Assembly: GCA_030765485.1 (NCBI GenBank)
Contig: JAVCCR010000032.1
Location: 55,481-119,480, forward strand
Source of the DNA: Candidatus Gygaella obscura
GTDB taxonomy: Bacteria > Omnitrophota > Gorgyraeia > Gygaellales > Gygaellaceae
Direction: 5' to 3'
DNA length: 64,000 nt
Both the position numbers and the translations under genes were made by a program. The notes beneath the pieces are model-generated. The model had not been told where the DNA came from and ran no database searches. It saw only the letters and a program-made list of their open reading frames with translations. Positions 1-25,447 of the stretch are shown here, piece after piece (position 1 is the first letter of the stretch; every line of letters begins with the position of its first letter).

Positions 1-206
1 GAATAAGGCGGGTTCTTTTAGAGAAAGCTGCAGCAGTGCCCAAAGAGGTGTGTCAATTGTGTTACGAGGCATTACTTTTGGCTCCGGTTTTAACAAGGAA
101 AGGGAATTTCAATCTTATTTCTGATGTTGAAGTCGGAGTTGAATTGTTAGAGGCTGCTTTTAAATCCGGTCTTATAAATGTAAGAATAAATAATGAAATT
201 GCTTGA
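1..206 (+). CDS. 3' end of methenyl-THF cyclohydrolase / formiminotransferase-cyclodeaminase-family protein (FchA-like), partial
   Basis: Frame-3 ORF enters from upstream and stops at TGA 204-206, overlapping the folD start. Its C-terminal ...GNFNLISDVEVGVELLEAAFKSGLINVRINNEIA resembles the cyclodeaminase/FchA C-terminus (GNxNxISD motif). It sits immediately upstream of folD-metVF, as in acetogen clusters. Confidence 0.45.
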   Translation, partial: IRRVLLEKAAAVPKEVCQLCYEALLLAPVLTRKGNFNLISDVEVGVELLEAAFKSGLINVRINNEIA

Positions 207-1029
207 AGGTAGAAAAATAGTTGATGGGATTAAATGCAGTTTAAAACAGGAGATTAAAGGTTTAAACCGAAAACCTGTTTTGGCTTGTGTTCAGCTGGGA
301 GACAATTCTTCGGTTTCAAGTTATATAAAATCACAGCAGAAATGCGCTAAGGATTTAGGAATTGAATATTGTTTGAAGTCCTTAGCGGCTCAAACCAGCC
401 AGGAGGATTTGATTGATACGATTACTGAACTTAATAACGACAGTAATATTAACGGTATAATTATCCAGCTTCCTTTGCCCGAACATATTGATGTAAGGAC
501 TGTATATATGGCGGTTTCTCCTGGTAAAGACGCAGAATCTATGCATCCGGAAAACCTAGGAAAGCTTTTCTTTTCTAGTACTAAAGTTTCTCCTTGCACG
601 GCTAGTGCAGTTGTAGAATTATTAAAATCAATCGATATCAAACTTTATGGTAAAGAGGTTGTTATCGTCGGGCACAGTCCCATATTAGGTAAGCCTTTAT
701 CTATTATGCTTTTGAATGAGTATGCCACAATCACAGTTTGTCATATTGCTACATTTGAAGCCGAGAAGTTGATATCTCATATAAAGCAGGCAGATATATT
801 AATTGTAGCTGTGGGTAAAGCGAATTTCATAAAAGCGGATTGGGTAAAAGAAGGTGCGGTAGTTATTGATGTGGGTATTAATAAGCTTGGCGATAAGATA
901 ATCGGAGATGTTGATTTTGATAATGTTTCTAAGAAAGCAAGCTTTATTACGCCTGTTCCCGGAGGGGTAGGGCCTTTAACCACGGCAATATTAATGCGCA
1001 ATCTAGTTACACTAGCAGGCAAGAAATGA
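193..1029 (+). CDS. folD: bifunctional methylene-THF dehydrogenase / methenyl-THF cyclohydrolase
   Basis: 278 aa. FolD-like throughout, with the Rossmann motif VVIVGHSPILGKP and C-terminal PVPGGVGPLTTAILMRNLV. Confidence 0.9.
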   Translation: MKLLEGRKIVDGIKCSLKQEIKGLNRKPVLACVQLGDNSSVSSYIKSQQKCAKDLGIEYCLKSLAAQTSQEDLIDTITELNNDSNINGIIIQLPLPEHIDVRTVYMAVSPGKDAESMHPENLGKLFFSSTKVSPCTASAVVELLKSIDIKLYGKEVVIVGHSPILGKPLSIMLLNEYATITVCHIATFEAEKLISHIKQADILIVAVGKANFIKADWVKEGAVVIDVGINKLGDKIIGDVDFDNVSKKASFITPVPGGVGPLTTAILMRNLVTLAGKK

Positions 1030-1685
1030 TAGTTACAAAGCAAAAGAGCTTACAAGATATATTAGCGGCATTAAAGAATAAAACCAATATTTTCATTATT
1101 GGTTGTGGGGAATGTGCAACGGCTTGCAAGACAGGCGGAGAAGAGGAAGTTAAAGCCTTAGCCAGCGAGTTATCTAAACATAAGAAGAATATTATTGGTT
1201 CTGTTATTCCTAAAGCTCCCTGTGTTGTTAGTCAGGTAAAAAGGGATTTATCTAAATTCCGTGTCGAGCTGGAAAAAACAGATTGTGTTTTAGTTATGGC
1301 CTGCGGTCTGGGTGTGCAGGCAGTCATAAAAAGTAAACGTTTTAACGGTAAAGTAGTTAGTTGCTGCGATACTTTATTTGCCGGATCAATGACTTCAGTA
1401 GGAGAATTTTTTGAATCCTGTTCTTCTTGTGGAGAGTGTGTTTTAAATATTACTGGTGGTCTTTGTCCTGTTACCAGGTGTCCGAAGTCATTATTGAACG
1501 GTCCCTGCGGCGGGGCAAAAAACGGGAAATGCGAAGTAGATAGAAACAACGATTGTGTTTGGATTTTGATCTACGAACGACTTAAAGAACTGGGTGAGTT
1601 GGATAATATTAAAAATTTTATCGAAGCAAAAAACCAGCGTAAGAATTTACGCCCTGGAAGTAGGTCTTTAAAAAAAGATAATTAA
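1026..1685 (+). CDS. metV: MTHFR C-terminal-domain-like zinc-finger protein (MetV-type partner of MetF)
   Basis: 219 aa and Cys-rich (GCGECATAC, CSSCGEC, CPVTRCP, NGPCGG). Its start overlaps the folD stop (ATGA) and it sits immediately upstream of metF, as in acetogen metVF operons. Confidence 0.75.
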   Translation: MIVTKQKSLQDILAALKNKTNIFIIGCGECATACKTGGEEEVKALASELSKHKKNIIGSVIPKAPCVVSQVKRDLSKFRVELEKTDCVLVMACGLGVQAVIKSKRFNGKVVSCCDTLFAGSMTSVGEFFESCSSCGECVLNITGGLCPVTRCPKSLLNGPCGGAKNGKCEVDRNNDCVWILIYERLKELGELDNIKNFIEAKNQRKNLRPGSRSLKKDN

Positions 1686-1687
1686 AT

Positions 1688-2557
1688 ATGAGTAAATTAG
1701 AAACAGCTTTTAAGAATAAAAAATTTGCGGTTACCAGCGAGATTGGACCGCCCAAGGGGATTTTGTTTGAACAGATTTTAATGGATAACATTTCTTTAAG
1801 GGGGCGTGTGGATGCAATTAATGTTACTGATCTTCAGAGTTCGGTTATGCGTTTAGGCTCTTTGGCATTTTCTAAAATTCTTTTAGACAACGCAATAGAA
1901 CCGGTTTTTCAGCTTACCTGTAGAGATAGAAATAGACTTGCTCTACAGTCAGATCTTTTAAGCGCTGCAGTCTTGGGTATTGAAAATGTATTATTGTTAA
2001 CAGGCGATCATCCTATTCTAGGTGATCATCCTCAGGCAAAGGCTGTTTATGATTTAGACAGTGTTCAGCTTTTAGATTGTGCAAGAAAACTTACCAACGG
2101 AGTTGATCTTTGTGGTAATAAGCTTAAAGGTTCTCCTAAGTTGTTTTTAGGGGCTGTTGTTAATCCGGGGGTGGAAACTCTTGATCTAGAGTTGTTGAAG
2201 ATGGAAAAGAAGATTAAAGCAGGTGCACAGTTTTTCCAGACTCAGGCAGTTTATGATATGGATTCTTTCGATAGGTTTATGAAAAAAGCCAAGACCTTTA
2301 ATGTCCCGATAATGGCGGGGATAGTGCTTTTAAAATCTGTTAATATGGCTAAATATCTAAATGATAATGTTGCTGGTATAAATGTCCCCGAAGCACTAAT
2401 TAAACGTATGGAGAAGTCAACGGATAAGGTCAAGACTTCAATAGATATAGCTACAGAGCTTATAAATAATCTAAAAAGTAATTGCCAGGGTGTTCATATC
2501 ATGCCCATTGGTTGGGATAAGTATGTAGTGTCGCTTTTGGATCAAGCCGGTTTATAA
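1688..2557 (+). CDS. metF: 5,10-methylene-THF reductase
   Basis: 289 aa MTHFR-family TIM-barrel protein with acetogen-type MetF length and context, following metV. Confidence 0.85.
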   Translation: MSKLETAFKNKKFAVTSEIGPPKGILFEQILMDNISLRGRVDAINVTDLQSSVMRLGSLAFSKILLDNAIEPVFQLTCRDRNRLALQSDLLSAAVLGIENVLLLTGDHPILGDHPQAKAVYDLDSVQLLDCARKLTNGVDLCGNKLKGSPKLFLGAVVNPGVETLDLELLKMEKKIKAGAQFFQTQAVYDMDSFDRFMKKAKTFNVPIMAGIVLLKSVNMAKYLNDNVAGINVPEALIKRMEKSTDKVKTSIDIATELINNLKSNCQGVHIMPIGWDKYVVSLLDQAGL

Positions 2558-2559
2558 TT

Positions 2560-3429
2560 ATGAAAATTTTAATTATTGGTAGTTCTGCTGCGGGTATTGA
2601 AGCTGCAGCGATGATCAGTTCTTCAGATAGGACGCATGAAGTTACTATAGTCAGCGAAGAGGCTGTTTTGCCTTATTATAGATTTAAACTTGCCGAGTTT
2701 ATTTTTATTAAAGAAGCGGGAAATGGATTCTATTTTAAAGATAAAGAATTTTTCGAAAAGAACAATCTAAAACTTTTGTTAAATAAGAAAGCCATAGGCC
2801 TGGACACAAGAAAAAGAAGGGTAAGGCTAGACGATAATACTTATATTGATTTTGACAGGCTTTTGGTTGCTACGGGAGCTAATTGTGTATTGCCGCAGAT
2901 AAAAGGAACAAATAAAAAGAATGTTTATGGACTTAGGAGTTATTCTGATGCCGAAGAAATAAAAAAGAATCTACCGATTGCCAGTACTGTATTTTTAACA
3001 GGTAACGAAATGTACCTGCGGGATATGGCTTTAAAGTTGAGCCTGCAGAAAAAAGAAGTATTTTTAGTTACTACAAATAATAATCTGGTAGCAGATATTG
3101 AAGAAAACGAGAATTTGAGGTTTATGCTTGAGGATGAAATATTGGAGATAATCGGAGAGTCACAGATACAGGCGGTTAAGCTTAAAAGCAATAAGGTTAT
3201 GGCATGTTCATTATTAGTTTATAATGGTAATTTTAAATCTAATATAAATTTTTTGAAAGGTTCGCCAGTAGAATTATCCGATGGAGTAATTGTAGATGAG
3301 AATATGCGCACCAATTTGGATTTTATTTTTGCTGCCGGCGATGTAGTTGTAATTGACGAGACGAGAAAACGCACCTGGGATAATGCAATCGAGCAGGGCA
3401 GAAAGGCCGGTTTGTCAATATTATTATAG
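2560..3429 (+). CDS. FAD-dependent pyridine-nucleotide-disulfide-oxidoreductase-like flavoprotein with degenerate NAD(P) site and no redox CxxxxC
   Basis: 289 aa. N-terminal IIGSSAAGIEAA is a dinucleotide (FAD) motif and the FAAGDVV FAD motif sits near the C-terminus. The central second Rossmann region reads VFLTGNEMYL, so it lacks GxGxxG. Confidence 0.5.
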   Translation: MKILIIGSSAAGIEAAAMISSSDRTHEVTIVSEEAVLPYYRFKLAEFIFIKEAGNGFYFKDKEFFEKNNLKLLLNKKAIGLDTRKRRVRLDDNTYIDFDRLLVATGANCVLPQIKGTNKKNVYGLRSYSDAEEIKKNLPIASTVFLTGNEMYLRDMALKLSLQKKEVFLVTTNNNLVADIEENENLRFMLEDEILEIIGESQIQAVKLKSNKVMACSLLVYNGNFKSNINFLKGSPVELSDGVIVDENMRTNLDFIFAAGDVVVIDETRKRTWDNAIEQGRKAGLSILL

Positions 3430-3488
3430 CTTTCTTCTTTTTCTACCGCGTAAAATCAGCTTAACAGACAATTCCTTTATTACCTATA

Positions 3489-5552
3489 ATGACAGATTTA
3501 AAATCAAGTTTACAAAAATTATCATTACTTTTAAAAGAAGACGTAGGTATATTGTTTAATAGCGATATATCAGAAAAATACGATGAAAATTTTTCATTTA
3601 AGGATATGGAAAATGCCTTTCCTTTGATCTGTGCTTTTTTTGGTAAGCGTATTTCTAGTTTTAGACAGCTGCGGAGTGCGTTAAATAAAATATCTCTTTT
3701 GCAAGATAAGGTAACAAACAGCGATAAAAAAATAAAAGAATCCGAGTACATCAGAAGACTTGGTTTGGTTATTTTATTTTATGAAGAGATAAAGATTTAT
3801 TTCGATGCTTTATCAAAAAGAAGGAATTTGGAAAGCATTTTGTTTAGCGATACACATATCAGAAAACTCGGTATAGCTTTATTGGATAAGAGCATAAGTG
3901 GATTTATTGTCTTTGTTGGAAGTGTAAATAAAAGTTCTAGCAGGGATGTTTTCTTAACGGATGCAGCCAAAAGGAAGTTAATAGTTTTTGATGACGCGTA
4001 TAAAACAGTTCAGTGCCTTATTAGGTTAAGTTTTATGTTTGGTTGTCAGAATAAAAAAGATTGGAAGTCTGTGTGTGATTACTGCAGGTCTAGTCTGCCT
4101 GCTGTAACTGTTTTATTAGATAATTTTAAAGAAATTGATTTAGCACAGGCCTGTGGAGCCTTAAATCTATCTGTTCCTATTATTACCAATAAAAGGTCAT
4201 TAAAGGTTAGGTATAGTAAGATTAAAAACGGTTACGATGCATTTATTAATATTAAAGAATCTGCTGTAATTATAGATAAGGTTGTAGAGGCAAGGAATAT
4301 TAAATTTGTTCCGGATTTGAGCCGTTTTCCAGTTGGTTTCGGTACAAAGTTTGAAGGGCAGATTATAAAAGATAAAGATTCTTTTATTGATTTTTCTCTT
4401 GGGTCTGCATGTGAGTTATTAGTAAATAGAAACCCTTCGCAGATCCGAGATGGCCAGATAGAAATTATTGGTAGCGATTTGGATAGTTTAAAAGCTGATG
4501 GATACAATAAAAGGCTTTTTATTTTAGTAGAGATGGTTACTAAAAGTGCCTCTAATGAATTTAATGCGGTTTTAGAACGTCAAATCCATAGATTTATTAA
4601 TTATATCGATGGTGTAACACATAGTGGACAAAGTGATTTTTTGAATATTTCAGTTAGTAGGAGTTCGTTTAGGAAGGGTTTAAGATTAAATGATATTGCT
4701 TTTTTTATTTATGCGATGATGCATAGGGAATATTCTAAAATTATAAATAAGATTCAAATAAAAATTATTACTGATAGAAAGCGTTTTGAAAAAGAATTAA
4801 GAAAATCCCGGGATATACACAGGACGCGTTTGGTAAAAGTTATCAATGAAACAGATGAATCCGTTAAAGAGTTTTATTCCTGTTCTATATGCCGCAGTTT
4901 TGCCTTAAATCATATATGTATTATTAGCCCTGAACATCCTGGTCTTTGCGGTTCTTATTCATTTCTTGATGCCAAGATTGCTTTTGAAATCGAGCCTTCA
5001 GGAGCAAATTATCCAATAAAAAAAGGAAAAGTTATTGATCGCAGGCTTGGACAGTGGCAAGGAGTGAATAGATACATTAAAAAAGTTACCAAAAATGCAG
5101 TTAAAAAAGTTAATCTTTATTCATTGATAGAATATCCGCATACCTGTTCTTTATGCTTTGAGTGTATTGTTGTAATCTTGCCGGAATTAAACGGTGTTAT
5201 GGTTGTGAGTAGAGATTATACTGGTAAAAATCCTCTTGGACTTGATTTTTCAAAATTGGCTCATCTATTGGGTTTTGGTGTTCAGTCTCCAGGAATGCTA
5301 GGTTCTAGCAGGGTTTTTCTATTAAGCAAAAAGTTTATGCCTCAAGAGGGGGGGGTAAAAAGAATTATTTGGATGCCCAGCAGTTTAAAGTATTTTTTGA
5401 CAAAGTATAATAAAGCAAGTCAAAAAAAGAGTAATTTAAAGAAAATATTCAGTAAGATTGCCGATGAGCATGATTGTACTTGCTTGGAGGATTTAGCAGA
5501 GTTTTTAAAGAAAAGAAAACACTCCTGTTTGAATATGAGCAGGATTATTTAA
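3489..5552 (+). CDS. acsB: acetyl-CoA synthase (CODH/ACS beta subunit, AcsB/CdhC family) homolog
   Basis: 687 aa. The C-terminal domain carries C465-x2-C468-x8-C477-x9-C487 (CSICRSFALNHICIISPEHPGLCG), the exact spacing of the A-cluster [4Fe-4S] ligands of ACS. About 66 residues downstream it has YPHTCSLCFECIV, where canonical ACS has TSCGCFE. The flanking similarity (PEHPGLCG, LYSLIEYP, GGVKRIIWMP) is ACS-like. Confidence 0.65.
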   Translation: MTDLKSSLQKLSLLLKEDVGILFNSDISEKYDENFSFKDMENAFPLICAFFGKRISSFRQLRSALNKISLLQDKVTNSDKKIKESEYIRRLGLVILFYEEIKIYFDALSKRRNLESILFSDTHIRKLGIALLDKSISGFIVFVGSVNKSSSRDVFLTDAAKRKLIVFDDAYKTVQCLIRLSFMFGCQNKKDWKSVCDYCRSSLPAVTVLLDNFKEIDLAQACGALNLSVPIITNKRSLKVRYSKIKNGYDAFINIKESAVIIDKVVEARNIKFVPDLSRFPVGFGTKFEGQIIKDKDSFIDFSLGSACELLVNRNPSQIRDGQIEIIGSDLDSLKADGYNKRLFILVEMVTKSASNEFNAVLERQIHRFINYIDGVTHSGQSDFLNISVSRSSFRKGLRLNDIAFFIYAMMHREYSKIINKIQIKIITDRKRFEKELRKSRDIHRTRLVKVINETDESVKEFYSCSICRSFALNHICIISPEHPGLCGSYSFLDAKIAFEIEPSGANYPIKKGKVIDRRLGQWQGVNRYIKKVTKNAVKKVNLYSLIEYPHTCSLCFECIVVILPELNGVMVVSRDYTGKNPLGLDFSKLAHLLGFGVQSPGMLGSSRVFLLSKKFMPQEGGVKRIIWMPSSLKYFLTKYNKASQKKSNLKKIFSKIADEHDCTCLEDLAEFLKKRKHSCLNMSRII

Positions 5553-5566
5553 AAAGCTTTTTTTGC

Positions 5567-5596
5567 TTGACTTGTATATATTATATGAGGTATATT
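5567..5596 (+). promoter_or_regulatory. putative sigma70-type promoter (TTGACT-18-TATATT) upstream of the TPR gene
   Basis: TTGACT at 5567-5572 and TATATT at 5591-5596. It is preceded by an AT-rich palindrome, AAAAAGCTTTTT. Confidence 0.3.
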
Positions 5597-5607
5597 ATAA
5601 CTAAATT

Positions 5608-6543
5608 ATGCGTAAGTATTTGAAACTTCTTTTTTTAGGTATTTTTTTGCTACTGGTTATTTGCGATGCCAGAAGTGTTTGTTTTGCTGATCATAAAGAT
5701 GATGCTTTAGATTTACGCAATAAAGGTCTTTTGGCCCAACGATTAGGAAATATCGATAAAGCTCTTAATTTTTATCTTCAGGCGCGCAAAAAATGGTCTT
5801 CCTGGCCGGTTATATATAATGATATTGGTGTTATTTATGAATTTCAATTAAGGATAAACGAAGCAGAGGCTGTCTATCTAAAAGCAATACAGTTTGATCC
5901 TTATTATGCTTCCAGTTATACTAATTTAGCCTTTCTTTATGAAAAGAAACAGGATTTTAAAAATGCTATTTTTTACTGGAAGAAAAGAATTCAGCTGGGC
6001 GATGTTGATGATCCTTGGGCAAAAACTGCCCGCGAAAGAATTGCTATTTTAAGAAATAAGATTGGGTTGCAAGAGGGTGATAGTACAGACGAATTGATTA
6101 AACAGGTAAATAAAGATATTTCTCGTTATGATAATCATATTTTTCCTTTTTCGGAGATTATTGATCTTGAATCTATAGATGATCTTTCTATGGAAGAAAA
6201 AATTACTAAAATTAGAAATGCCAAGGCAAGAGCCAAGTGGCTTCGCGATAACGATTATTCTGTTATGGAGAAAGATCAACTTGAGATGATTGATGAGTTA
6301 GAGTATTCCGTAGAGTTGGAGCGTGTGGAACAGGAAAAAGATCAACTTCTAGATCTTGATAGTGAAGGTTCGCTAGAGTTATTGAGAGAATTGTCAAAAG
6401 ATGATGATCCAGAAGTGAGAAAAAGTGCTGACGATGCCCTTTGGTATAATAGCCAAGGTTTTGGCATGTTGGCTAAAGAAGAAGCAGAGCGTATTAATCA
6501 GATGCGCAGTTTACCTTCAAGTAAATCACAGATAGATTATTAG
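5608..6543 (+). CDS. secreted TPR-repeat protein with acidic coiled-coil C-terminus
   Basis: N-terminal signal peptide MRKYLKLLFLGIFLLLVICDA. TPR-like repeats (AxxxYxxAIxxDPxYAxxYxNLAxxY). The C-terminal ~120 aa are D/E-rich. Confidence 0.6.
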   Translation: MRKYLKLLFLGIFLLLVICDARSVCFADHKDDALDLRNKGLLAQRLGNIDKALNFYLQARKKWSSWPVIYNDIGVIYEFQLRINEAEAVYLKAIQFDPYYASSYTNLAFLYEKKQDFKNAIFYWKKRIQLGDVDDPWAKTARERIAILRNKIGLQEGDSTDELIKQVNKDISRYDNHIFPFSEIIDLESIDDLSMEEKITKIRNAKARAKWLRDNDYSVMEKDQLEMIDELEYSVELERVEQEKDQLLDLDSEGSLELLRELSKDDDPEVRKSADDALWYNSQGFGMLAKEEAERINQMRSLPSSKSQIDY

Positions 6544-6596
6544 CACTAACTCCTAAATTTTAAAGATTAATGGCTTATTCCTTCCATTAGTTTTAT

Positions 6597-9119
6597 ATGA
6601 AAAACCCTAAAGAGTTAATATTAATAGACGCTAATTCATTTTGTTACCGTGCTTTTTATGCCATAAAGCAGCTTCAGACGAGCTATGGGCAGTCGACCAA
6701 TGCTGTTTACGGTTTTGTTGTTATGATAAATAAGATTGTTGAGATGTTTAAGCCTGAATACCTTGGGGTTTGTTTTGATGTTTCCAGAAAGACCTTTCGT
6801 TCTGAAAAATTCCGTGATTATAAGCTTAACAGGCCGGCTATGCCGGATGAGCTTGTTTCTCAGATAGATTTCATCAAGGAGCTGGTAAGAAGTTATAATT
6901 TCGCCCTGTTACAACGCCAGGGGTATGAAGCAGATGATATTATTGCTACAGCCTGCAGGACTTTTAAAAATAATGGATTTAAAAGTATCGTTATTAGTTC
7001 GGATAAAGATATGTTGCAGTTAGTGGATGATAAAACGTTTATTTATAATCCTCAGAAAGATAAAGGGCTTATGTTTGATAAAAGGGTTGTTTTAGAGCGG
7101 GTTGGCTTACATCCTGAGCAGATAGTTGATTTTATTAGTTTGACCGGTGATAATGCCGATAATATTCCGGGGGTTAAAGGTATAGGAGAAAAAACTGCTG
7201 TTTTATTGCTTAAGGAGTTTAAAACAGTGGATGGCGTTTTGAAGAATCTAGAAGAAATAAAAAAACCGAAATTAAGGGATTCACTTAGACAGGCAAAGAA
7301 GCAACTGACTTTAAACCGCGAGCTTATAACTTTGGATTCTAATGTAGACGTAGATGTTTCTTTGGATAATCTAAAGGTTAAAGAACCCGATTACAAAAGA
7401 CTTTCTCAGCTATATAGAAAACTTGAATTTAAGAGTTTATTAAAACAACTTCCTGATTCTTGTGATAGAGAAGTTTTAGAGTTAAAAAATGATCAGGAAT
7501 CATTTATCGGGGATTCGGAAGGAAAAAAGGCTATCTCTTTTTTTATTGAAGAAGATTGTTTTTATTTATCTTTCGGTACAGGATGTGTTTGGAAGTTCGA
7601 TTCGTTGTTTTTACAGTTAAAAGAAATATTAGAGGATAATAGTATTTTAAAAATTACGCATGATCTTAAAAAAGCTTATAGTGCTTTATCCAGATGCTCA
7701 GTAGAGTTAAAAGGAGAGCTTTTTGATATACTTTTGGCCGGATATCTTTTGGATAGCGGGAAGAGCGAATATTCGGTGAAAGACGTGCTTTTTGATTTTC
7801 TTGAGAAGCAGGTTAATCATAATTTTGAAGCTGTGAATTATTTTATTTCTTTAAAGGAGATTTTGTTAAAAAAACTTAAGGATAATCAGCTTGATAAATT
7901 GTTTTTTGAAGTTGAATTACCTTTTTCTAAAGTGTTATCCAGTATGGAAAGAGAAGGTTTTTCTATTGATGTTAGGTTTTTAAAAGATCTATCTGAAAAA
8001 TTCGAAATTAAACTAAAAAATATTACAGAAAAGATTTTTAAGATTAGCGAAGAAGAGTTTAATATCAATTCTCCTAAACAGCTTCGGGTTATTTTATTTG
8101 ATAAATTTAAACTTCCTGTTGTGAAGAAGACTAAAACCGGACCATCCACCGACGAGGAAGTTTTAAAAGTATTATCTTCAAAGCACGAGCTTCCTGTGTT
8201 GTTATTGGAGTATCGTCAGATTAACAAATTGAAGTCTACTTATGTTGATGTATTGCCGGAATTAGTGGATAAGAAGAATAAAATTCACTGTAATTTTAAG
8301 CAGTTTGGAACAGGTACAGGAAGATTGTCTTGTGAGAATCCGAACCTGCAGAATATTCCTGTAAGGACCGCCGCGGGAAAAGAAATCAGACGTGCTTTTA
8401 TTTGTTCCCGTAAAGATAATGTGCTTATTTCAAGCGATTATTCTCAGATAGAGCTGAGGATATTAGCGCATCTATCCAAAGATAAGAATCTGGTTAAGGC
8501 ATTTAAAAAGGGTGAGGATATTCATAGATTTACTGCCGGACTAGTTTTTGATGTTGAGGAAAAAGATGTGGATAATCAAATGCGCAATGTCGCTAAAAGA
8601 GTAAATTTCGGTATTATTTACGGAATGAGTGCTTTTGGTCTGGCTAAGGATCTATCGATTACTAATCAAGAAGCGCAAAATTTTATCGATACGTATTTCT
8701 TAAGGTATCCTAAAGTAAAAGAATATATCCAAGGTCAGATCAAATTTGCCGAAAATAACGGATATGTGGAAACTGTTCTCGGCAGGAAAAGATTTCTGCC
8801 ATTTATTAAAAGCAAAGTTAACGCTCAAAAGCAGTTTGCTTACCGCCAGGCAATAAATACGCCTGTTCAGGGTTCGGCAGCGGAGCTTATGAAGTTGGCG
8901 ATGATTAATATCCATGAATTGTTTATGAAAAATAGACTTTCTGCGAAAATAATACTTCAGGTTCATGATGAGTTGATTTTTGAAGTGAATAAGAATAGTT
9001 TAGAGGAATCAATATCGGTTATACGTAGCAATATGGAACAGATTTATAAGATAGATGTGCCGATTAAAACTAATTTTAAACAGGGTTCTAATTGGTTTGA
9101 TATGGTTGCTGTGAATTAA
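6597..9119 (+). CDS. polA: DNA polymerase I
   Basis: 840 aa with an N-terminal 5'-3' exonuclease domain and a C-terminal family A polymerase domain (motif A DYSQIELR, motif B RNVAKRVNFGIIYG, motif C QVHDEL). Confidence 0.9.
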   Translation: MKNPKELILIDANSFCYRAFYAIKQLQTSYGQSTNAVYGFVVMINKIVEMFKPEYLGVCFDVSRKTFRSEKFRDYKLNRPAMPDELVSQIDFIKELVRSYNFALLQRQGYEADDIIATACRTFKNNGFKSIVISSDKDMLQLVDDKTFIYNPQKDKGLMFDKRVVLERVGLHPEQIVDFISLTGDNADNIPGVKGIGEKTAVLLLKEFKTVDGVLKNLEEIKKPKLRDSLRQAKKQLTLNRELITLDSNVDVDVSLDNLKVKEPDYKRLSQLYRKLEFKSLLKQLPDSCDREVLELKNDQESFIGDSEGKKAISFFIEEDCFYLSFGTGCVWKFDSLFLQLKEILEDNSILKITHDLKKAYSALSRCSVELKGELFDILLAGYLLDSGKSEYSVKDVLFDFLEKQVNHNFEAVNYFISLKEILLKKLKDNQLDKLFFEVELPFSKVLSSMEREGFSIDVRFLKDLSEKFEIKLKNITEKIFKISEEEFNINSPKQLRVILFDKFKLPVVKKTKTGPSTDEEVLKVLSSKHELPVLLLEYRQINKLKSTYVDVLPELVDKKNKIHCNFKQFGTGTGRLSCENPNLQNIPVRTAAGKEIRRAFICSRKDNVLISSDYSQIELRILAHLSKDKNLVKAFKKGEDIHRFTAGLVFDVEEKDVDNQMRNVAKRVNFGIIYGMSAFGLAKDLSITNQEAQNFIDTYFLRYPKVKEYIQGQIKFAENNGYVETVLGRKRFLPFIKSKVNAQKQFAYRQAINTPVQGSAAELMKLAMINIHELFMKNRLSAKIILQVHDELIFEVNKNSLEESISVIRSNMEQIYKIDVPIKTNFKQGSNWFDMVAVN

Positions 9120-9137
9120 TTCTAAATAGGAAAATAT

Positions 9138-10550
9138 ATGAATATACTTTTTTGTTCTAGTGAAGTCGTACCTTTTGCTAAAACAGGTGGTTTGGCTGAT
9201 GTTGCCGGAGCATTGCCTTTGGCATTAAAAATGCTTAACCACGATATACGCATTGTTATGCCAAAATACGGCTTTATTGATGAAAAGAAATTTTCTTTAA
9301 AAAAATTGAATAATAATTTATATACGGCTAAAATAGCGGATAAAGTTACAGTTTATTTCATCGACCATAAGAGCTTCTTTAAGCGGGACGGTTTATACGG
9401 GGATAAGAATGGAGATTATCCGGACAATCTGGATAGATTTTCTTATTTTTCTCAACAGGTAATCGCTCTAATAAAGGAAGTTGATTTTATTCCCGATGTT
9501 GTGCATTGTAATGATTGGCAGACTGCGTTGATACCGGTTTATTTAAAGACCGCATGCAAAAACGATTCTGTTTATGCAAAGATAAAGACAGTATTCACAG
9601 TCCATAATCTTGCTTATCAGGGGCTTTTTGATAAAGAAAATTTTTCTAAGTTGGGTTTAGATTGGAAATTATTCAATATGGATTATCTGGAATATTACGA
9701 TAAAATTAATTTTTTAAAGGGTGGTTTGGTATTTTGCGATATTATTACTACTGTAAGCGAAGCCTATGCAAAGGAAATTCAGACTAAGGAATTCGGCTGT
9801 GGTCTGGAAGGATTATTGACGAAACGCAGTAAAGATCTTTTTGGCATTATCAATGGTCTTGATTATAATTTGTGGGATCCAGAAAAAGATAAGATGATTT
9901 ATAAGAAATATTCTGCTAAAGCCTATAAAGCCAAACATGAAAATAAAAGGCAATTGCAGGCAGAATGCGGTTTAGCAGTAAAAGAAGATGCGCTTTTATG
10001 CGGTATGGTTTCTAGGCTGGCTGAGCAAAAAGGAGTTGATGTATTGAGTGCTTCTTTGCAAGAATTAATAAAGCTTAATCTACAGGTTGTTATTTTAGGT
10101 ACGGGTGATTTGAAATACCATGATTTGTTGGCAAGGCTAGCAAAAAAATATAAAGATAAAATAAGCGTATTTTTAAAATTTGATAACGTGATAGCTCATA
10201 AGATATATGCCGGCAGTGATTTATTTTTAATGCCTTCGCGCTATGAGCCGTGTGGTTTGGGTCAGATGATAAGTTTAAAATACGGTACAGTTCCCTTGGT
10301 GTATAAAACCGGTGGTCTTGCTGATACGGTAATTGATTGTCAAAAAGACAAAACTAAAGGCAATGGATTTGTTTTTGAAAAATTTGATAAAAAAGAGTTT
10401 ATTTCAACTGTAAAAAGAGCACTTGCGGTTTTTGAAGAAAATAAATTCAATTCTCTTATTGGCAAAGCTTTTAAATATAATTTTTCGTGGAAGTCTTCGG
10501 CAAGTAAATACATAGATTTATTCAATCGTTTGGTAAAAGGAAGGGTTTAA
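9138..10550 (+). CDS. glgA: glycogen synthase (ADP-glucose type, GT5)
   Basis: 470 aa with N-terminal SEVVPFAKTGGLADVAGALP, the KTGGL motif of GlgA. Confidence 0.9.
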   Translation: MNILFCSSEVVPFAKTGGLADVAGALPLALKMLNHDIRIVMPKYGFIDEKKFSLKKLNNNLYTAKIADKVTVYFIDHKSFFKRDGLYGDKNGDYPDNLDRFSYFSQQVIALIKEVDFIPDVVHCNDWQTALIPVYLKTACKNDSVYAKIKTVFTVHNLAYQGLFDKENFSKLGLDWKLFNMDYLEYYDKINFLKGGLVFCDIITTVSEAYAKEIQTKEFGCGLEGLLTKRSKDLFGIINGLDYNLWDPEKDKMIYKKYSAKAYKAKHENKRQLQAECGLAVKEDALLCGMVSRLAEQKGVDVLSASLQELIKLNLQVVILGTGDLKYHDLLARLAKKYKDKISVFLKFDNVIAHKIYAGSDLFLMPSRYEPCGLGQMISLKYGTVPLVYKTGGLADTVIDCQKDKTKGNGFVFEKFDKKEFISTVKRALAVFEENKFNSLIGKAFKYNFSWKSSASKYIDLFNRLVKGRV

Positions 10551-10556
10551 GCGGTT

Positions 10557-11147
10557 ATGGTTTTTGGAGTTACAGGAGGTTTTGCTTGCGGTAAAAGTAC
10601 GGTTAGCAAGATGTTTCGTGATTTGGGTGCAAAATTAATTGATGCGGATAAAATTGCTCACGTTCTTTTAGATTCGCCCAAGTTAAAAAGAAGTTTAGTT
10701 TCTTATTTTGGGAAAGATATATTAACCAGGCAAAAGAAGATTAGTAGGAAAAAACTTGCGAATATTGTTTTTTCAAAACCAAACAGCCTGAGATTTCTTA
10801 ATAGTGTTGTTCATCCGGAGGTAATCAAAAAATTAAAATCCCGGATTGCTTCTTTCAGAAACAGAATATTGGTTTTGGATATTCCTTTGTTGTACGAGTC
10901 ACGCTTAGAAAATTTGGTTGATTATATTGTGGTGGTTAAGTGTTTAAAATTAATTTGTTTAAAGAGGGCACAAGAGAATAATTTTTCTAAATCGCAGGCT
11001 TTGAAAATAATCCAGGCACAATTGCCTTTAAGATATAAAGTTGAGCAAGCTGATTATGTAATTGATAATAGCTATTCGTTAAAAAAGACCAATATGGAGG
11101 TTAAAAAGACATGGCGGGATATGTTGCGAAAACAGAACAAGAAGTAA
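10557..11147 (+). CDS. coaE: dephospho-CoA kinase
   Basis: 196 aa with a P-loop, [12 protein letters not shown]. Confidence 0.85.
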
Positions 11148-11149
11148 AA

Positions 11150-12397
11150 ATGGATATCAGTAATCTTAAGGATATGAAAGTAACCGATCTTAATAAAATC
11201 GCTAGAGATCTTCGTGTCAATGGGGTTAGCGGATTGAAGAAACAGGATTTGATTTTTAAAATACTTCAGGCCCAGGCGGAAAAAGCCGGACTTATGTTCG
11301 GAGAAGGCACTTTAGAGATTTTACCAGAAGGCTTTGGGTTTTTAAGGTCGGCGAATTACAATTATTTGCCTTCACCTGATGATATTTATATTTCACCATC
11401 CCAGATAAGGAAATTTGATTTAAGGACTGGCGATACAGTCAGTGGTCAGATTAGGCCTCCTAAGGAAGGCGAGAAGTATTTCGCACTTTTAAAGGTAGAG
11501 GCGGTGAATTTTGAGAATCCTGAGAATTCAAAAGAAAAGGTTCTTTTTGATAATCTTACGCCCCTTTACCCGCAGGAGAAATTTATTCTTGAGACCAAGC
11601 CAGAAGAGGTGTCCATGCGGGTAATGAGCCTGTTGGCTCCTTTAGGCAAGGGCCAGCGTGCATTAATCGTGGCTCCGCCTTATAGCGGTAAAACCGTGCT
11701 TTTACAGAAAATCGGTAATGCCATAACAAACAACCACCCTGATGCGACATTAATGGTGCTTTTGATTGATGAGCGTCCAGAAGAGGTTACGGATATGCAG
11801 CGTAATGTTAAAGGAGAAGTAATTAGCTCTACTTTCGATGAGGCTCCGGAGCGTCATGTTCAGGTAGCGGAAATCGTGTTAGAGAAGGCTAAAAGGCTTA
11901 TTGAACATAAACGGGATGTTATAATTTTACTTGATAGTATTACCCGTTTAGCACGTGCCTATAACTCAGTAATGCCTCATAGCGGTAAGATTCTTTCAGG
12001 TGGTATTGATTCAAATGCCTTGCAGAAGCCAAAGAGGTTTTTTGGCGCAGCCCGTGCATTAGAAGAAGGAGGAAGTCTTACTATAATTGCTACCGCTTTA
12101 GTTGATACTGGAAGTCGTATGGATGATGTAATTTTTGAGGAGTTTAAAGGAACTGGCAATATGGAGCTTCAGCTTGATAGAAATCTATTCCAGCGCAGAA
12201 TATATCCGGCTATTGATATTAAGCGTTCTAACACGAGACACGAGGAATTGCTTCTTAAGGAAGATGAACTTACAAAAATATGGATTATGCGCAAAGTATT
12301 GAATGATTTGAATTCTGTAGAGGCAATGGAGCTTTTGATTCAAAAATTAAAAAAGACTAAGAATAATAAGGATTTTTTAAATAGTATGAACCAGTAG
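11150..12397 (+). CDS. rho: transcription termination factor Rho
   Basis: N-terminal Rho_N domain, cold-shock-like RNA-binding domain, and Walker A PPYSGKT. I chose the start at ATG 11150 (MDISNLKDM...) immediately after the coaE stop; the ORF track's upstream Met at 11111 overlaps coaE. Confidence 0.9.
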
Positions 12398-12413
12398 ATA
12401 AGGGAAAAAGAAT

Positions 12414-13769
12414 ATGAATAAAATAGCGTTTGTTTTGTTAAGTTTTATTTTATGTTCTGTGTTTGCTTTTGCTCAAGAGGTTGAGGAAATCCGTATTGTT
12501 ACTTATTATCCTTCTCCTTACGGAAGTTATACAGAGTTACGCAGTAACAGGATGGCCATTGGAGATAATTATAGCGATGCTGGCACTTACCAATGGGGGA
12601 CTAATATTAACACTAATGCTGATTTAATTGTTCAGCAAAATGTTGGAATTGGAACATCTAACCCCGATGCCCCGCTATCTTTTGCAAATTCATTAGGTGA
12701 TAAAATCCAACTTTATGATAATGGTAGTTTTACTACGTATGGTTTTGGTGTACAAAGTAATAACCTGCAATTATTGACTACCGATCATACTACGGATATT
12801 ACTTTTAATTATGGTTTTAGTGCTTCTGCTACGGAATTGATGAGGATAAAGGGTAATGGCAATGTCGGTATCGGAATCACGAATCCAACTGAAAAGTTAT
12901 ACGTAAACGGGAATGCCATAATTGGCAGTAGTAATGTCGATGCTACTCTTAATGGGGAGGGAGTGTTTCAGTCAAGCAGTAATTTAGCTGGGGCTGGGTT
13001 TATAGCTACTCCTTGGGTGTATGCACGAGCAATAGAAGGAGATCAAAGAGGATCTGGCTCTACTCTTATTACAATTGGTGGTAAAAATGGCTTTACCAGT
13101 GATGATGAAATTGGTTTAGTAACAAACGGAAAACTAAAAATGCTTATGGATTCAAATGGGTTAGTGACTTTTTTTGGTTTGCATTCTACTTCTCCAGGGA
13201 ATCTCGTATTTAATCAGGATAGTCAGGGTGATTTTGAGACTGATATTAATTTTGATTCTAGCGGGCGTATTGCTGGAGAGAGTGATATTTTTCGTGTTGC
13301 AAGCAAAGGAACTCACGATTTACGTTTAGCAACGAATTCAGTAGATGATAAAGTTACTATTAGAAATTCAGGTATGGTTGGTATCTTGGATACGACCCCC
13401 AGTTATACTTTAGATGTTAACGGTACTTTTAGGGCGTTTGGTATTACTGATTCATCAGATATAAGATGGAAGAAAAATATAACTAATCTCGAGACTCCTT
13501 TAGATAAACTTGCTAAGCTTAGGGGAGTAAGGTATCAGTGGAATCAAGAAGCCTATCCCGATAAGAATTTTGCTCCAGGTATGCAGATTGGTATTATTGC
13601 CCAAGAGCTCGAAGAGCAATATCCTGAGTTGGTGGACATAGATAGTGATGGCTATAAATCAATTCAATATGGAAAATTAACTGCTGTATTATTAGAGGGG
13701 ATCAAAGAGTTAAAACAAGAAAATGATATTTTAAAACAAAGAATCGCATCTTTGGAAGAAAATTTTTAG
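12414..13769 (+). CDS. secreted fibre-like protein with C-terminal intramolecular chaperone (peptidase S74 / endosialidase-chaperone-like) domain
   Basis: Signal peptide MNKIAFVLLSFILCSVFAFA. Repeated GNVGIGTxNPxxxLxV-type motifs typical of tail-fibre stalks. The C-terminal ~110 aa (DIRWKKNITNLETPLDKLAKLRGVRYQWN...GIIAQELEEQYPELV...YGKLTAVLLEGIKELKQE) match the self-cleaving chaperone domain of phage tail fibres and tailspikes. Confidence 0.6.
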   Translation: MNKIAFVLLSFILCSVFAFAQEVEEIRIVTYYPSPYGSYTELRSNRMAIGDNYSDAGTYQWGTNINTNADLIVQQNVGIGTSNPDAPLSFANSLGDKIQLYDNGSFTTYGFGVQSNNLQLLTTDHTTDITFNYGFSASATELMRIKGNGNVGIGITNPTEKLYVNGNAIIGSSNVDATLNGEGVFQSSSNLAGAGFIATPWVYARAIEGDQRGSGSTLITIGGKNGFTSDDEIGLVTNGKLKMLMDSNGLVTFFGLHSTSPGNLVFNQDSQGDFETDINFDSSGRIAGESDIFRVASKGTHDLRLATNSVDDKVTIRNSGMVGILDTTPSYTLDVNGTFRAFGITDSSDIRWKKNITNLETPLDKLAKLRGVRYQWNQEAYPDKNFAPGMQIGIIAQELEEQYPELVDIDSDGYKSIQYGKLTAVLLEGIKELKQENDILKQRIASLEENF

Positions 13770-13830
13770 AAGAAAAGTTTGAAGCGATTATTTTTTACAA
13801 ATATAACTAGATGAAAGGAAGGAGAAAAAA

Positions 13831-14034
13831 ATGAAAAAGGAAATCCACCCAAAGTATAAAGATTGTACTATAGTCTGTGCATGCGGAGAGGTGATTCATA
13901 CGCGTTCTACAAAAGACAATATCCGTGTGGATATATGTTCTAAGTGTCATCCGTTTTTTACCGGAAAGCAGAAATTTATTGATTCTGCCGGACGCGTTGA
14001 AAAATTCAATAAAAAATATAAGAAAAACAAGTAA
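13831..14034 (+). CDS. rpmE: 50S ribosomal protein L31
   Basis: 67 aa with MKKEIHPKY and the zinc-ribbon cysteines CxC...CxxCHPFFTG. Confidence 0.9.
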
Positions 14035-17704: not shown

Positions 17705-17716
17705 TAACTTAATCTT

Positions 17717-20144: not shown

Positions 20145-20159
20145 AACAAAGGAAAAACA

Positions 20160-22099: not shown

Positions 22100-22102
22100 G
22101 CA

Positions 22103-22897: not shown

Positions 22898-22904
22898 CCT
22901 AGAT

Positions 22905-24176: not shown

Positions 24177-24178
24177 TT

Positions 24179-25198: not shown

Positions 25199-25227
25199 TT
25201 TTGATATTAGTCTAGACAGAGCTATTG

Positions 25228-25438: not shown

Positions 25439-25447
25439 AATTTTAAG

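What the first reader, a model, noticed from the sequence alone, without database searches (positions are those of the whole stretch)
1..5552. Wood-Ljungdahl methyl-branch cluster with orphan acsB and no CODH/CFeSP/methyltransferase genes nearby
The gene order is fchA(partial)-folD-metV-metF-flavoprotein-acsB, with intervals of 0-60 bp that look operonic. In acetogens and other WL organisms acsB normally sits with acsA (CODH), acsCD (CFeSP) and acsE. Here acsB is followed by a TPR protein and polA. Either the carbonyl-branch partners are upstream of the window or elsewhere, or this AcsB-like protein works in a non-canonical context with the methyl-branch enzymes.
Basis: partly seen in the sequence, partly recalled or inferred. 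Interest (0 to 1): 0.55.

Follow-up and report, generated by a model that had tools for sequence, protein, structure and literature searches.

The report
Degenerate acetyl-CoA synthase remnant in Omnitrophota
The "orphan acsB" is real, but it is a fast-evolving leftover of a carbon-fixation operon that lost its CO dehydrogenase. It has lost the nickel-binding motif that acetyl-CoA synthase needs, so it should not be counted as evidence of a working Wood-Ljungdahl pathway.

Summary
The window, from Candidatus Gygaella obscura (Omnitrophota, Ace Lake), carries fchA(3' end)-folD-metV-metF-flavoprotein-acsB-like with gaps of -14 to 59 bp, followed by TPR and polA. No CODH, CFeSP or AcsE gene lies in the 64 kb window or the 6.5 kb upstream. 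The published annotation of the 90-94% complete MAG lists none.

Related Omnitrophota contigs with the same flanking genes have metF-(cooC)-cooS-cooF-FNOR(426-431 aa)-acsB(canonical)-TPR-polA. The Gygaella locus is therefore that operon after cooS/cooF were deleted and the FNOR was cut to 289 aa.

The retained AcsB keeps the three-domain fold and all four [4Fe-4S] cysteines. Its Ni-binding Ser-Cys-Gly-Cys reads Cys-Ser-Leu-Cys. It has lost 23 of 91 near-invariant ACS residues and is only 33-37% identical to its syntenic canonical orthologues, which are 70% identical to each other.

It is still under purifying selection against its one close homologue (55% identity, dN/dS about 0.23). Other Omnitrophota lineages lost the motif in other ways (SSGY, SSSL, SCGT, SCSY).

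Verdict: this is not a working acetyl-CoA synthase. It is a retained Fe-S protein of unknown function, and a new variant of a known kind.

The parts
3..206 (+). 3' part of fchA (methenyl-THF cyclohydrolase). The full gene encodes 162 aa on contig L001.
   Evidence: PF04961, E 4e-15, and NCBIfam FchA. The full gene was seen in L001.
193..1029 (+). folD (bifunctional methylene-THF dehydrogenase/cyclohydrolase), 278 aa.
   Evidence: PF00763 + PF02882. It is 74% identical to the L008 orthologue, with dN/dS 0.08.
1026..1685 (+). metV-like small subunit of MetFV-type methylene-THF reductase, 219 aa and Cys-rich.
   Evidence: PF12225, E 2e-34. It is 85% identical to the L008 orthologue.
1688..2557 (+). 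metF (methylene-THF reductase), 289 aa.
   Evidence: PF02219, E 6e-40. It is listed as MetF of this MAG in Williams 2021 Table S5.
2560..3429 (+). Truncated FNOR-type FAD protein, 289 aa. It is the remnant of the oxidoreductase of a cooS-cooF-FNOR module.
   Evidence: PF07992 only. Its closest full-length homologue, P0231 (431 aa, 35% identity), lies between cooS-cooF and acsB in the syntenic locus L093. It lacks the roughly 125-aa C-terminal domain (PF18267). The NAD(P)H-binding motif GGGLVG reads TGNEMY. It is 73% identical to the L008 orthologue, with dN/dS 0.13.
3489..5552 (+). AcsB' : a degenerate orthologue of acetyl-CoA synthase, 687 aa.
   Evidence: PF03598 + PF19436 but no PF18537. 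NCBIfam score 559 against a cut-off of 800. AF2 model pLDDT 83.9; TM 0.75 to ACS 6ytt_A. It is 33-37% identical to the syntenic canonical AcsB proteins, which are 70.5% identical to each other. dN/dS is 0.23 against its only close homologue.
4881..4949 (+). Codons of the four conserved [4Fe-4S] cubane cysteines (C465, C468, C477, C487; equivalent to M. thermoacetica C506, C509, C518, C528).
   Evidence: This stretch translates to YSCSICRSFALNHICIISPEHPGLCGS. These columns are invariant in the alignments.
5145..5156 (+). Former Ni-binding site. It reads Cys-Ser-Leu-Cys where canonical ACS has Ser594-Cys595-Gly596-Cys597.
   Evidence: The canonical ligands are described in PMC8910529.
5523..5544 (+). 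Terminator-like hairpin overlapping the end of acsB'. A T-run follows, and then a promoter-like site at 5567..5596 before the TPR gene.
   Evidence: Consensus scan only: 11 terminator-like sites against 4.3 expected. Sequence shown. This is weak evidence that the operon ends here.
5608..6543 (+). TPR protein. It is a conserved downstream neighbour in all syntenic loci and is not part of the Wood-Ljungdahl remnant.

Best explanation
The cluster is what remains of an ancestral Omnitrophota Wood-Ljungdahl operon, (fhs)-fchA-folD-metV-metF-[cooC]-cooS-cooF-FNOR-acsB. In the Gygaellaceae lineage the CODH genes were deleted, the FNOR was cut down to its FAD domain, and fhs later eroded in G. obscura.

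folD, metF and metV remain because they serve ordinary one-carbon metabolism.

The retained AcsB orthologue (AcsB') keeps the ACS fold and the [4Fe-4S] cubane. It has lost the Cys-Gly-Cys tripeptide that binds the distal Ni and supplies two of the three thiolates of the catalytic proximal Ni. It has no CFeSP, methyltransferase or CODH to work with. It therefore does not make or cleave acetyl-CoA.

It is nevertheless kept by purifying selection. Most likely it acts as an iron-sulfur protein with a different role.

Shown:
- orthology by synteny
- the deletions and the truncation
- loss of the motif and of other invariant residues
- accelerated evolution that is still constrained
- absence of partner genes

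Inferred:
- loss of ACS activity
- retention of the cubane
- a role as an electron-transfer partner of the co-transcribed short FAD protein and/or MetFV; this last step is the weakest
For: **Synteny.** L009 and L093 have metF-(cooC)-cooS-cooF-FNOR(426/431 aa)-acsB(SCGC)-TPR-polA-glgA-coaE-rho-rpmE-prfA. The downstream order is identical to the window.

**Locus in the window.** The window and L008 have metF-flavoprotein(289/290 aa)-acsB'-TPR-polA and onwards. tblastn finds no cooS trace in the window.

**fhs.** It is present in L008. In G. obscura it survives as a collinear relic of about 160 bp in L001 5991-6147 (E 6e-4).

**Ni motif.** CSLC in the window protein and CSAC in P0002, against xCGC in the canonical sequences. 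All four cubane cysteines are kept.

**Invariant residues.** Of 91 positions that are at least 95% conserved in 47 canonical ACS sequences, the window protein keeps 68 and P0002 keeps 65. Canonical control sequences keep 90-91.

**Rate of change.** The canonical AcsB proteins of L009 and L093 are 70.5% identical while their PolA proteins are 48.6% identical. The window AcsB' is 33-37% identical to them while PolA is 49%.

**Constraint.** dN/dS is 0.23 over a near-saturated dS of about 1.5, with no frame disruption. The chance of no stop codon in 687 random codons is 2e-25.

**Partners.** None in the window or 6.5 kb upstream. None in the published MAG annotation. No Gygaella AcsC appeared in two searches.

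**Recurrence.** Other Omnitrophota lineages lost the motif differently:
- SSGY, seen in 8 sequences from several MAGs (L010)
- SSSL, with the N-domain deleted (L012)
- SCGT (P0005)
- SCSY (L011)

**Fold.** It is retained.
Against: - No biochemical data exist.
- The Gygaellaceae proteins keep two cysteines in a CxxC arrangement (C553, C556) next to the bridging Cys468. A single metal could still bind there.
- The MAG is only 90-94% complete, so a CFeSP or CODH gene on an unbinned contig cannot be fully excluded. The two AcsC searches were pattern- or word-limited and showed only the top hits.
- dN/dS near saturation is approximate.
- The proposed redox partnership with the flavoprotein and MetFV rests only on gene adjacency and on conserved pairing in the five reduced loci found (window, L008, L010, L012, L094).
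Confidence: 0.65

Rival explanations
1. AcsB' is a non-functional relic on its way to being lost. It persists only because not enough time has passed, or because of polar or structural constraints in the operon.
For: - It has the highest dN and dN/dS in the locus: 0.345 and 0.23.
- The N-domain has an omega of about 0.4.
- The former Ni ligands were replaced differently in different lineages, and the N-domain was deleted outright in L012.
- The fhs relic shows that the locus is still decaying.
- The organism has a reduced genome of about 1.4-1.5 Mb.
Against: - A 687-codon ORF is intact in two lineages whose synonymous sites are near saturation. P(no stop) is 2e-25 for random sequence.
- dN/dS is clearly below 1 in every domain.
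- All four cubane cysteines are invariant in every variant.
- Streamlined genomes remove dead genes quickly, as happened to fhs and cooS here.
Confidence: 0.17
2. AcsB' is still a working acetyl-CoA synthase or decarbonylase. It uses CFeSP/AcsE, and CODH or free CO, encoded elsewhere in the genome. This would resemble the monomeric ACS of Carboxydothermus hydrogenoformans or the CODH-less ACS of Dehalococcoides.
For: - The ACS fold and the cubane are retained.
- Stand-alone or CODH-less ACS is known: PDB 1RU3 and Dehalococcoides (PMC7005905).
- Partial pathways lacking AcsA are reported in related Omnitrophota families (PMC10066038).
- The MAG is incomplete.
Against: - Cys595 and Gly596 of the Ni site are replaced.
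- A further 19 near-invariant ACS residues are changed in both family members, including E291, R382, R388 and W492.
- No AcsC, AcsD, AcsE or CooS is annotated in the MAG.
- The score is below the NCBIfam cut-off.
- The N-domain is only 18-22% identical to that of the orthologue.
Confidence: 0.06
3. AcsB' has acquired a new catalytic metal site: the cubane bridged through Cys468 to one metal held by Cys553 and Cys556. It would perform new chemistry, possibly on methyl-THF or another C1 or thiol substrate, with the short FAD protein as redox partner.
For: - The C-S-x-C arrangement is conserved in both Gygaellaceae proteins although they are only 55% identical overall.
- Cys553 is a gain relative to the canonical Ser594.
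- The gene is tightly linked to metF and the flavoprotein in all reduced loci.
Against: - Sister variants lack these cysteines (SSGY, SSSL). The site is therefore dispensable in at least two other variants (P0046 and P0054) found in the same flavoprotein-acsB context.
- There are only two family members, so conservation of two residues is weak evidence.
- Residues that are invariant in the middle domain of canonical ACS are lost.
Confidence: 0.1

Closest known systems
Canonical bacterial acetyl-CoA synthase AcsB (Moorella thermoacetica, C. hydrogenoformans, C. autoethanogenum; PDB 1OAO, 1RU3, 6YTT)
   Same: It shares the three-domain fold (TM 0.75 to 6ytt_A). The A2-A3 domains are 38% identical to 3git. 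All four [4Fe-4S] cysteines and the bridging Cys are kept.
   Different: - Ser-Cys-Gly-Cys has become Cys-Ser-Leu-Cys.
- 23 of 91 near-invariant residues are changed.
- The N-terminal domain, which pairs with CODH in the solved CODH/ACS complexes, is not recognised by PF18537 and carries deletions.
- There is no CODH, CFeSP or AcsE partner.
Syntenic canonical acsB loci of related Omnitrophota (L009 from JGI 3300035660; L093 from JGI 3300038439)
   Same: The flanking gene order is the same: fchA-folD-...-metF upstream and TPR-polA-glgA-coaE-rho-rpmE-prfA downstream. acsB directly follows an FNOR-type flavoprotein.
   Different: Those loci keep cooC/cooS/cooF, a full-length FNOR (426-431 aa) and an SCGC AcsB. 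Their AcsB proteins are 70.5% identical to each other. The window protein is only 33-37% identical to them.
Incomplete Wood-Ljungdahl pathway of Dehalococcoides mccartyi (AcsB + AcsCD without CODH; Zhuang 2014, discussed in PMC7005905)
   Same: An ACS homologue sits in a genome without CODH, next to THF-dependent C1 genes.
   Different: Dehalococcoides keeps CFeSP (AcsCD) and lacks MetF. Its AcsB is reported to cleave acetyl-CoA. Gygaella has MetF/MetV but no CFeSP, and its AcsB' lacks the Ni motif.
'Partial WLP lacking AcsA/CooS' reported for 24 Omnitrophota species (Seymour et al. 2023, PMC10066038)
   Same: Same phylum, and it includes a family of the same order (Gygaellales). The carbonyl branch is truncated.
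   Different: Those genomes are described as having AcsB-E and as using CO. Here AcsC, AcsD and AcsE are also missing and the AcsB active site is degenerate. The Ni-motif variants found here (SSGY, SCSY and others) suggest that some of those calls need re-examination.
FNOR-type NAD(P)/FAD oxidoreductase of a cooS-cooF-FNOR gene arrangement
   Same: The flavoprotein is homologous to the FNOR next to cooS-cooF in L093 and L009 (32-35% identity). The N-terminal FAD-binding motif is kept.
   Different: It lacks the C-terminal domain (PF18267). The NAD(P)H GxGxxG motif is degenerate. There is no CooS or CooF partner.

Membership tests
CO-methylating acetyl-CoA synthase (AcsB/CdhC, EC 2.3.1.169) | ACS middle and C-terminal domains (PF03598, PF19436) and the overall three-domain fold | tested here: met
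   PF03598 E 6e-38 and PF19436 E 2e-86. AF2 model TM 0.75 to 6ytt_A and 0.85 (normalised to the target) to 3git.
CO-methylating acetyl-CoA synthase (AcsB/CdhC, EC 2.3.1.169) | Four cysteines ligating the [4Fe-4S] cubane of the A-cluster (Mt C506, C509, C518, C528) | tested here: met
   C465, C468, C477 and C487 are conserved.
CO-methylating acetyl-CoA synthase (AcsB/CdhC, EC 2.3.1.169) | Cys595-Gly596-Cys597 motif that binds the distal Ni (N2S2) and bridges the proximal Ni | tested here: not met
   The site reads Ser554-Leu555-Cys556, with a Cys shifted to position 553. The motif is defined in PMC8910529.
CO-methylating acetyl-CoA synthase (AcsB/CdhC, EC 2.3.1.169) | Score above the curated equivalog cut-off (NCBIfam NF040764, 800 bits) | tested here: not met
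   559 bits, with only residues 173-686 aligned. NCBI names it a hypothetical protein.
CO-methylating acetyl-CoA synthase (AcsB/CdhC, EC 2.3.1.169) | N-terminal CODH-docking domain (PF18537) | tested here: inconclusive
   There is no PF18537 hit. The domain is 18-22% identical to that of the orthologue and has a 33-column deletion. The AF2 fold still matches the ACS N-domain of 6yua at TM 0.74-0.76.
CO-methylating acetyl-CoA synthase (AcsB/CdhC, EC 2.3.1.169) | Co-occurrence with CFeSP (AcsC/AcsD) and methyltransferase AcsE in the genome | tested here: not met
   None in the window or 6.5 kb upstream. None in the published MAG table. Two AcsC searches were weakly negative. The MAG is 90-94% complete.
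CO-methylating acetyl-CoA synthase (AcsB/CdhC, EC 2.3.1.169) | Ni-dependent acetyl-CoA synthesis or CO exchange activity | not testable with these tools
   This needs anaerobic expression, metal analysis, EPR and activity assays.
Complete Wood-Ljungdahl methyl branch | Fhs + FchA/FolD + MetF(V) all present | tested here: not met
   fhs is reduced to a relic of about 160 bp upstream of the window and is absent from the MAG table. FchA, FolD, MetV and MetF are present.
FNOR-type NAD(P)/FAD oxidoreductase (rubredoxin/ferredoxin reductase-like) | FAD Rossmann motif + NAD(P)H GxGxxG motif + C-terminal domain (PF18267) | tested here: not met
   The FAD motif GSSAAG is kept. The NAD(P)H motif reads TGNEMY. 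The C-terminal domain is absent.
Dehalococcoides-type incomplete Wood-Ljungdahl pathway | AcsB with AcsCD (CFeSP), no CODH, no MetF | tested here: not met
   No AcsCD was found, and MetF/MetV are present.

The most novel reading that the evidence does not exclude
After CODH was lost, the ACS scaffold and the FAD half of FNOR were co-opted together as a new two-protein Fe-S/flavin redox module tied to MetF(V). In the Gygaellaceae the module may carry a new single-metal Cys3 site on the cubane. It would be maintained across several Omnitrophota lineages. This would be the first known case of a Ni-free functional descendant of acetyl-CoA synthase.
Probability: 0.2. Interest if true: 0.7.

Novelty: new variant of a known kind. 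Interest (0 to 1): 0.5.

Why it matters
**Annotation.** AcsB is used as the marker gene for the Wood-Ljungdahl pathway in metagenome surveys. Here AcsB homologues that pass Pfam lack the Ni ligands and lack partner genes. Some of them, such as the SSGY cluster, are named ACS by NCBI. Presence or absence calls can therefore overstate acetogenic or CO-using potential in Omnitrophota. Many motif variants in the 1.84-billion-protein library suggest the same may hold in other phyla.

**Evolution.** The set of syntenic loci captures stepwise dismantling of one of the oldest enzyme complexes:
1. a full cooS-cooF-FNOR-acsB locus
2. a locus with CODH deleted, FNOR truncated and a near-canonical AcsB
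3. loss of the Ni motif
4. loss of the N-domain or hyper-divergence

The ACS scaffold and its cubane persist under selection after the catalytic Ni site is gone. This raises a testable question about what else the fold can do.

Tried and rejected
- **Partners upstream.** Rejected. L001 shows ruvB...rnhB-fchA.
- **cooS remnants in the window.** tblastn with L009 CooS found nothing. CooF hit only the ferredoxin subunits of the oxoacid oxidoreductase.
- **A single clade of Ni-motif variants** (the NJ tree grouped P0001/2 with P0046, P0054 and P0005). Rejected as probable long-branch attraction. L010 is closer to canonical L009 than to the window in every housekeeping gene, and P0046, P0054 and P0005 are 50-62% identical to canonical AcsB but only 33-44% identical to P0001. 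Independent losses are more likely.
- **Promoter scan.** Not above chance: 30 sites against 24.5 expected. The best hit overlaps the acsB' start codon. Terminator-like sites are modestly enriched and were used only as a hint.
- **Rfam scan of L001 and L008.** No families found.
- **Per-genome KO table in Seymour 2023.** The stored file is truncated, so the Gygaella KO list could not be read.
- **Searches for AcsC in Gygaella or its relatives.** The genome-contig scan and the protein search found none. Both are limited, to peptide patterns or to the top 120 of 7,990 hits, so they count only as weak negatives.
- **Resemblance of 'CSLC' to the nitrile hydratase CSLCSC metal motif** (from my own knowledge). 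Considered and dropped. The homologue has CSAC, the spacing to the next Cys differs, and nothing else supports it.
- **Literature search for AcsB-like proteins lacking Ni ligands.** Nothing in the held library.

Full report
**1. What is in the window**

Positions 1-5552 carry these genes on the + strand:
- the last 67 codons of fchA (3..206)
- folD (193..1029)
- a metV-like gene (1026..1685, PF12225)
- metF (1688..2557)
- a 289-aa Pyr_redox_2 flavoprotein (2560..3429)
- a 687-aa protein with the two ACS Pfam domains PF03598 and PF19436 (3489..5552)

A TPR protein and polA follow. The spacings are -14, -4, 2, 2, 59, 55 and 53 bp.

The remaining 58 kb holds housekeeping genes only. These include the trp operon, argS, recJ, a four-subunit 2-oxoacid:ferredoxin oxidoreductase, bamA, lpx genes and ribosomal proteins. 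There is no CODH, CFeSP or methyltransferase gene.

**2. Origin and the upstream test**

The AcsB-like protein is encoded identically on 13 contigs read from ENA, JGI and Logan assemblies. NCBI names it 'hypothetical protein P9L96_06075 [Candidatus Gygaella obscura]'.

G. obscura is an Omnitrophota MAG (class Velamenicoccia, order Gygaellales) from Ace Lake, Antarctica. The MAG is 1.38 Mb and 90-94% complete. The coordinates of FolD and MetF in Williams et al. 2021, Table S5 (Ga0374944_274658_55673_56509 and _57168_58037) fit window position 1 being position 55481 of that contig.

On the 187-kb contig L001 the genes upstream of the window are ruvB-queH-spoIID-queA-tgt-trmD-rplS-rnhB, then a 280-bp gap, then fchA.

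In the same Table S5 the Gygaella column is empty for AcsA/CooS, AcsB, AcsC, AcsD, CooF, AcsE, FocA, Fdh and Fhs. Only FolD and MetF are listed. All 14 Ace Lake Omnitrophota MAGs have FolD and MetF, whether or not they have the pathway. folD and metF are therefore ordinary one-carbon metabolism genes here.

**3. The protein is not a normal AcsB**

- It scores 559 bits against the NCBIfam ACS equivalog, whose cut-off is 800. Only residues 173-686 align.
- It aligns to solved ACS structures only from about residue 172.
- It lacks the N-terminal Pfam domain PF18537, which nearly all full-length relatives in the hit list carry.
- The four cubane cysteines are conserved (YSCSICRSFALNHICIISPEHPGLCG).
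- Canonical ACS has Ser594-Cys595-Gly596-Cys597-Phe598. That tripeptide forms the N2S2 distal Ni site and supplies two of the three thiolates of the catalytic proximal Ni (PMC8910529). The window protein reads Cys-Ser-Leu-Cys-Phe at that position.
- Of 91 positions that are at least 95% conserved in 47 canonical full-length ACS sequences, the window protein keeps 68. Canonical control sequences left out of the set keep 90-91. Twenty-one positions are changed in both members of its family, including E291, G351, E359, R382, R388, G404 and W492.
- The fold is retained. The AF2 model has pLDDT 83.9 and TM 0.75 to C. autoethanogenum ACS. The N-domain alone matches the ACS N-domain at TM 0.74-0.76 with 20% identity.

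**4. How rare it is**

An exhaustive HMMER search of 1.84 billion cluster representatives returned one full-length relative, P0002 (55% identity, 682 aa, motif CSAC, from GCA_018400015.1). The next hit has 37% identity and covers only residues 172-687. The word-indexed search of 5.8 billion clusters gave the same picture.

**5. Synteny explains the 'orphan'**

| Locus | Gene order around acsB |
|---|---|
| L008 (P0002) | rnhB-fhs-fchA-folD-metV-metF-flavoprotein(290 aa)-acsB'-TPR-polA-glgA-coaE-rho |
| L009 (canonical) | fchA-folD-...-metF-cooS-cooF-...-FNOR(426 aa)-acsB(SCGC)-TPR-polA-glgA-coaE-rho-rpmE-prfA-prmC-aroA |
| L093 (canonical) | fhs-fchA-folD-...-metF-cooC-cooS-cooF-FNOR(431 aa)-acsB(SCGC)-TPR-polA-... 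|

L008 is the same locus as the window, with fhs present. In G. obscura the corresponding 280-bp gap still holds two collinear fragments of fhs (L001 5991-6147, E 6e-4). L009 and L093 are two other uncultured relatives that share the same downstream order.

Even a canonical acsB in this lineage is followed by TPR-polA. The Gygaella locus is the same operon with cooS/cooF removed.

The short flavoprotein is the FNOR remnant. Its closest full-length homologue is the L093 FNOR (35% identity). It ends right after the FAD domain and lacks the roughly 125-aa C-terminal domain. Its NAD(P)H motif GGGLVG reads TGNEMY.

**6. Rate and constraint**

The canonical AcsB proteins of L009 and L093 are 70.5% identical, while their PolA, GlgA and FolD proteins are 49-59% identical. 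AcsB is therefore normally one of the best-conserved proteins of the locus.

The window protein is only 33-37% identical to those orthologues, while PolA, GlgA and FolD are 49-57% identical. Its N-domain is 18-22% identical to that of P0004. Canonical ACS from different phyla share 44-60% in the same region.

Between the window and L008, AcsB' is the least conserved protein of the locus at 55%. The others range from 66% to 96%. Its dN is 0.345 and its dN/dS is 0.23. The other genes have dN/dS of 0.02-0.22. dS is about 1.1-2.1, which is near saturation.

By domain, dN/dS is about 0.36-0.41 for the N-terminal part and 0.2 or less for the rest. A random 687-codon frame of this base composition would be free of stop codons with probability 2e-25.

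The protein has therefore evolved fast but has remained under purifying selection since the two lineages split.

**7. The same thing happened elsewhere in Omnitrophota**

| Locus | Arrangement | State of AcsB |
|---|---|---|
| L010 (GCA_028700175.1) | fchA-folD-metF-flavoprotein(294 aa)-acsB-TPR-polA | SSGY. All 8 cluster members, from several MAGs, agree. NCBI names them ACS. |
| L012 | flavoprotein-acsB(424 aa)-TPR | No N-domain; SSSL. |
| L094 | metF-flavoprotein(292 aa)-acsB | The flavoprotein is 47% identical to the window's. The N-terminal 416 residues of AcsB are still 52-55% identical to canonical AcsB. |
| L011, L013 | metF-acsB-acsC | SCSY. |

L010 is closer to canonical L009 than to the window in every housekeeping gene. 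The losses there and in the Gygaellaceae are therefore probably independent. The NJ grouping of the variants is likely a long-branch artefact.

Across 192 ACS-family sequences the four cubane cysteines are almost universal. The Ni tripeptide is replaced in many ways.

**8. Interpretation**

The best-supported account is reductive evolution of a Wood-Ljungdahl operon. CODH and CFeSP/AcsE are gone, and fhs is eroding. folD and metFV are kept for C1 metabolism.

The AcsB orthologue is retained as a derived Fe-S protein that can no longer bind the Ni-Ni centre. It can therefore neither make nor cleave acetyl-CoA.

What it does instead is not known. Its conserved pairing and tight spacing with the truncated FAD protein and metF in the five reduced loci found (window, L008, L010, L012, L094) suggests a shared redox role. 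That rests on gene context only.

The rivals, scored in the rival section, are:
- a pure relic
- a still-working ACS with distant partners
- a new metal site formed by Cys468, Cys553 and Cys556

**9. Comparison with what is known**

The nearest physiological precedent is the CODH-less ACS of Dehalococcoides, which still has CFeSP (PMC7005905). The nearest taxonomic precedent is the 'partial WLP lacking AcsA' reported for 24 Omnitrophota species and interpreted as CO use (PMC10066038).

Neither source describes loss of the Ni-binding motif. Searches of the held literature for AcsB-like or Ni-ligand-less ACS found nothing.

I rate this a new variant of a known kind, of moderate interest. The 'orphan acsB' puzzle has an ordinary evolutionary explanation. 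The selected persistence of a Ni-less ACS scaffold, and the risk it poses for pathway calls from marker genes, are worth following up.

Noticed in passing
L001 5991-6147 (about 370-520 bp upstream of window position 1): There is a relic of fhs (formate-THF ligase). Two collinear tblastn fragments match residues 380-397 and 477-503 of the intact Fhs of the syntenic locus L008. They lie inside the 280-bp rnhB-fchA gap.
   Followed up: yes
P0030-P0041, P0076 (597-aa proteins; cluster members named Chloroflexota): A large group of short ACS homologues has Ala-Cys-Gly-Asp in place of x-Cys-Gly-Cys, so the second Ni cysteine is replaced by Asp. All four cubane cysteines are intact. They are annotated as ACS beta subunit. 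Their genomic context was not examined.
   Followed up: partly
census of 192 ACS-family sequences: Dozens of 50%-identity cluster representatives keep the four cubane cysteines but have non-CGC residues at the Ni site, for example SSGL, VSSL, SIGA, STLS and GCGR. Ni-less ACS-like proteins may be widespread beyond Omnitrophota.
   Followed up: partly
L011 7153-10677 and L013: An Omnitrophota AcsB with Ser-Cys-Ser-Tyr at the Ni site sits directly upstream of a normal-looking CFeSP large subunit (AcsC). A degenerate site is therefore not restricted to genomes that have lost CFeSP.
   Followed up: partly
L015 26-3844 (JBDRBQ010000004.1, Candidatus Omnitrophota): A canonical (SCGC) acsB appears split. 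Residues 1-500 and 468-719 of the query match two stretches about 1.5 kb apart. This could be an insertion or a misassembly.
   Followed up: no
window 12414..13769: A 451-aa protein with a Peptidase_S74 domain lies between rho and rpmE. L008 has an unrelated-looking 403-aa ORF with no Pfam hit at the same place. L009, L010 and L093 have nothing there, so this is a variable insertion spot.
   Followed up: no
window 52875..54197: A fused LpxC-FabZ protein (440 aa) lies within a bamA-ompH-lpxD-lpxC/fabZ-lpxA-lpxI cluster.
   Followed up: no
window 1..64000: GC skew is strongly positive in every 2-kb bin (0.08-0.34). Almost all genes are on the + strand, and GC content is about 35%.
   Followed up: no
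window 32739..36671: A four-subunit 2-oxoacid:ferredoxin oxidoreductase (gamma, delta, alpha, beta) is followed by a small ferredoxin and a radical SAM protein. This could be a source of reduced ferredoxin in this fermenter.
   Followed up: no
window 3489..5552 versus P0046 cluster: Public annotation is inconsistent. NCBI calls the Gygaella protein 'hypothetical'. It calls the SSGY variant, which lacks both Ni cysteines, 'acetyl-CoA decarbonylase/synthase complex subunit alpha/beta'.
   Followed up: yes
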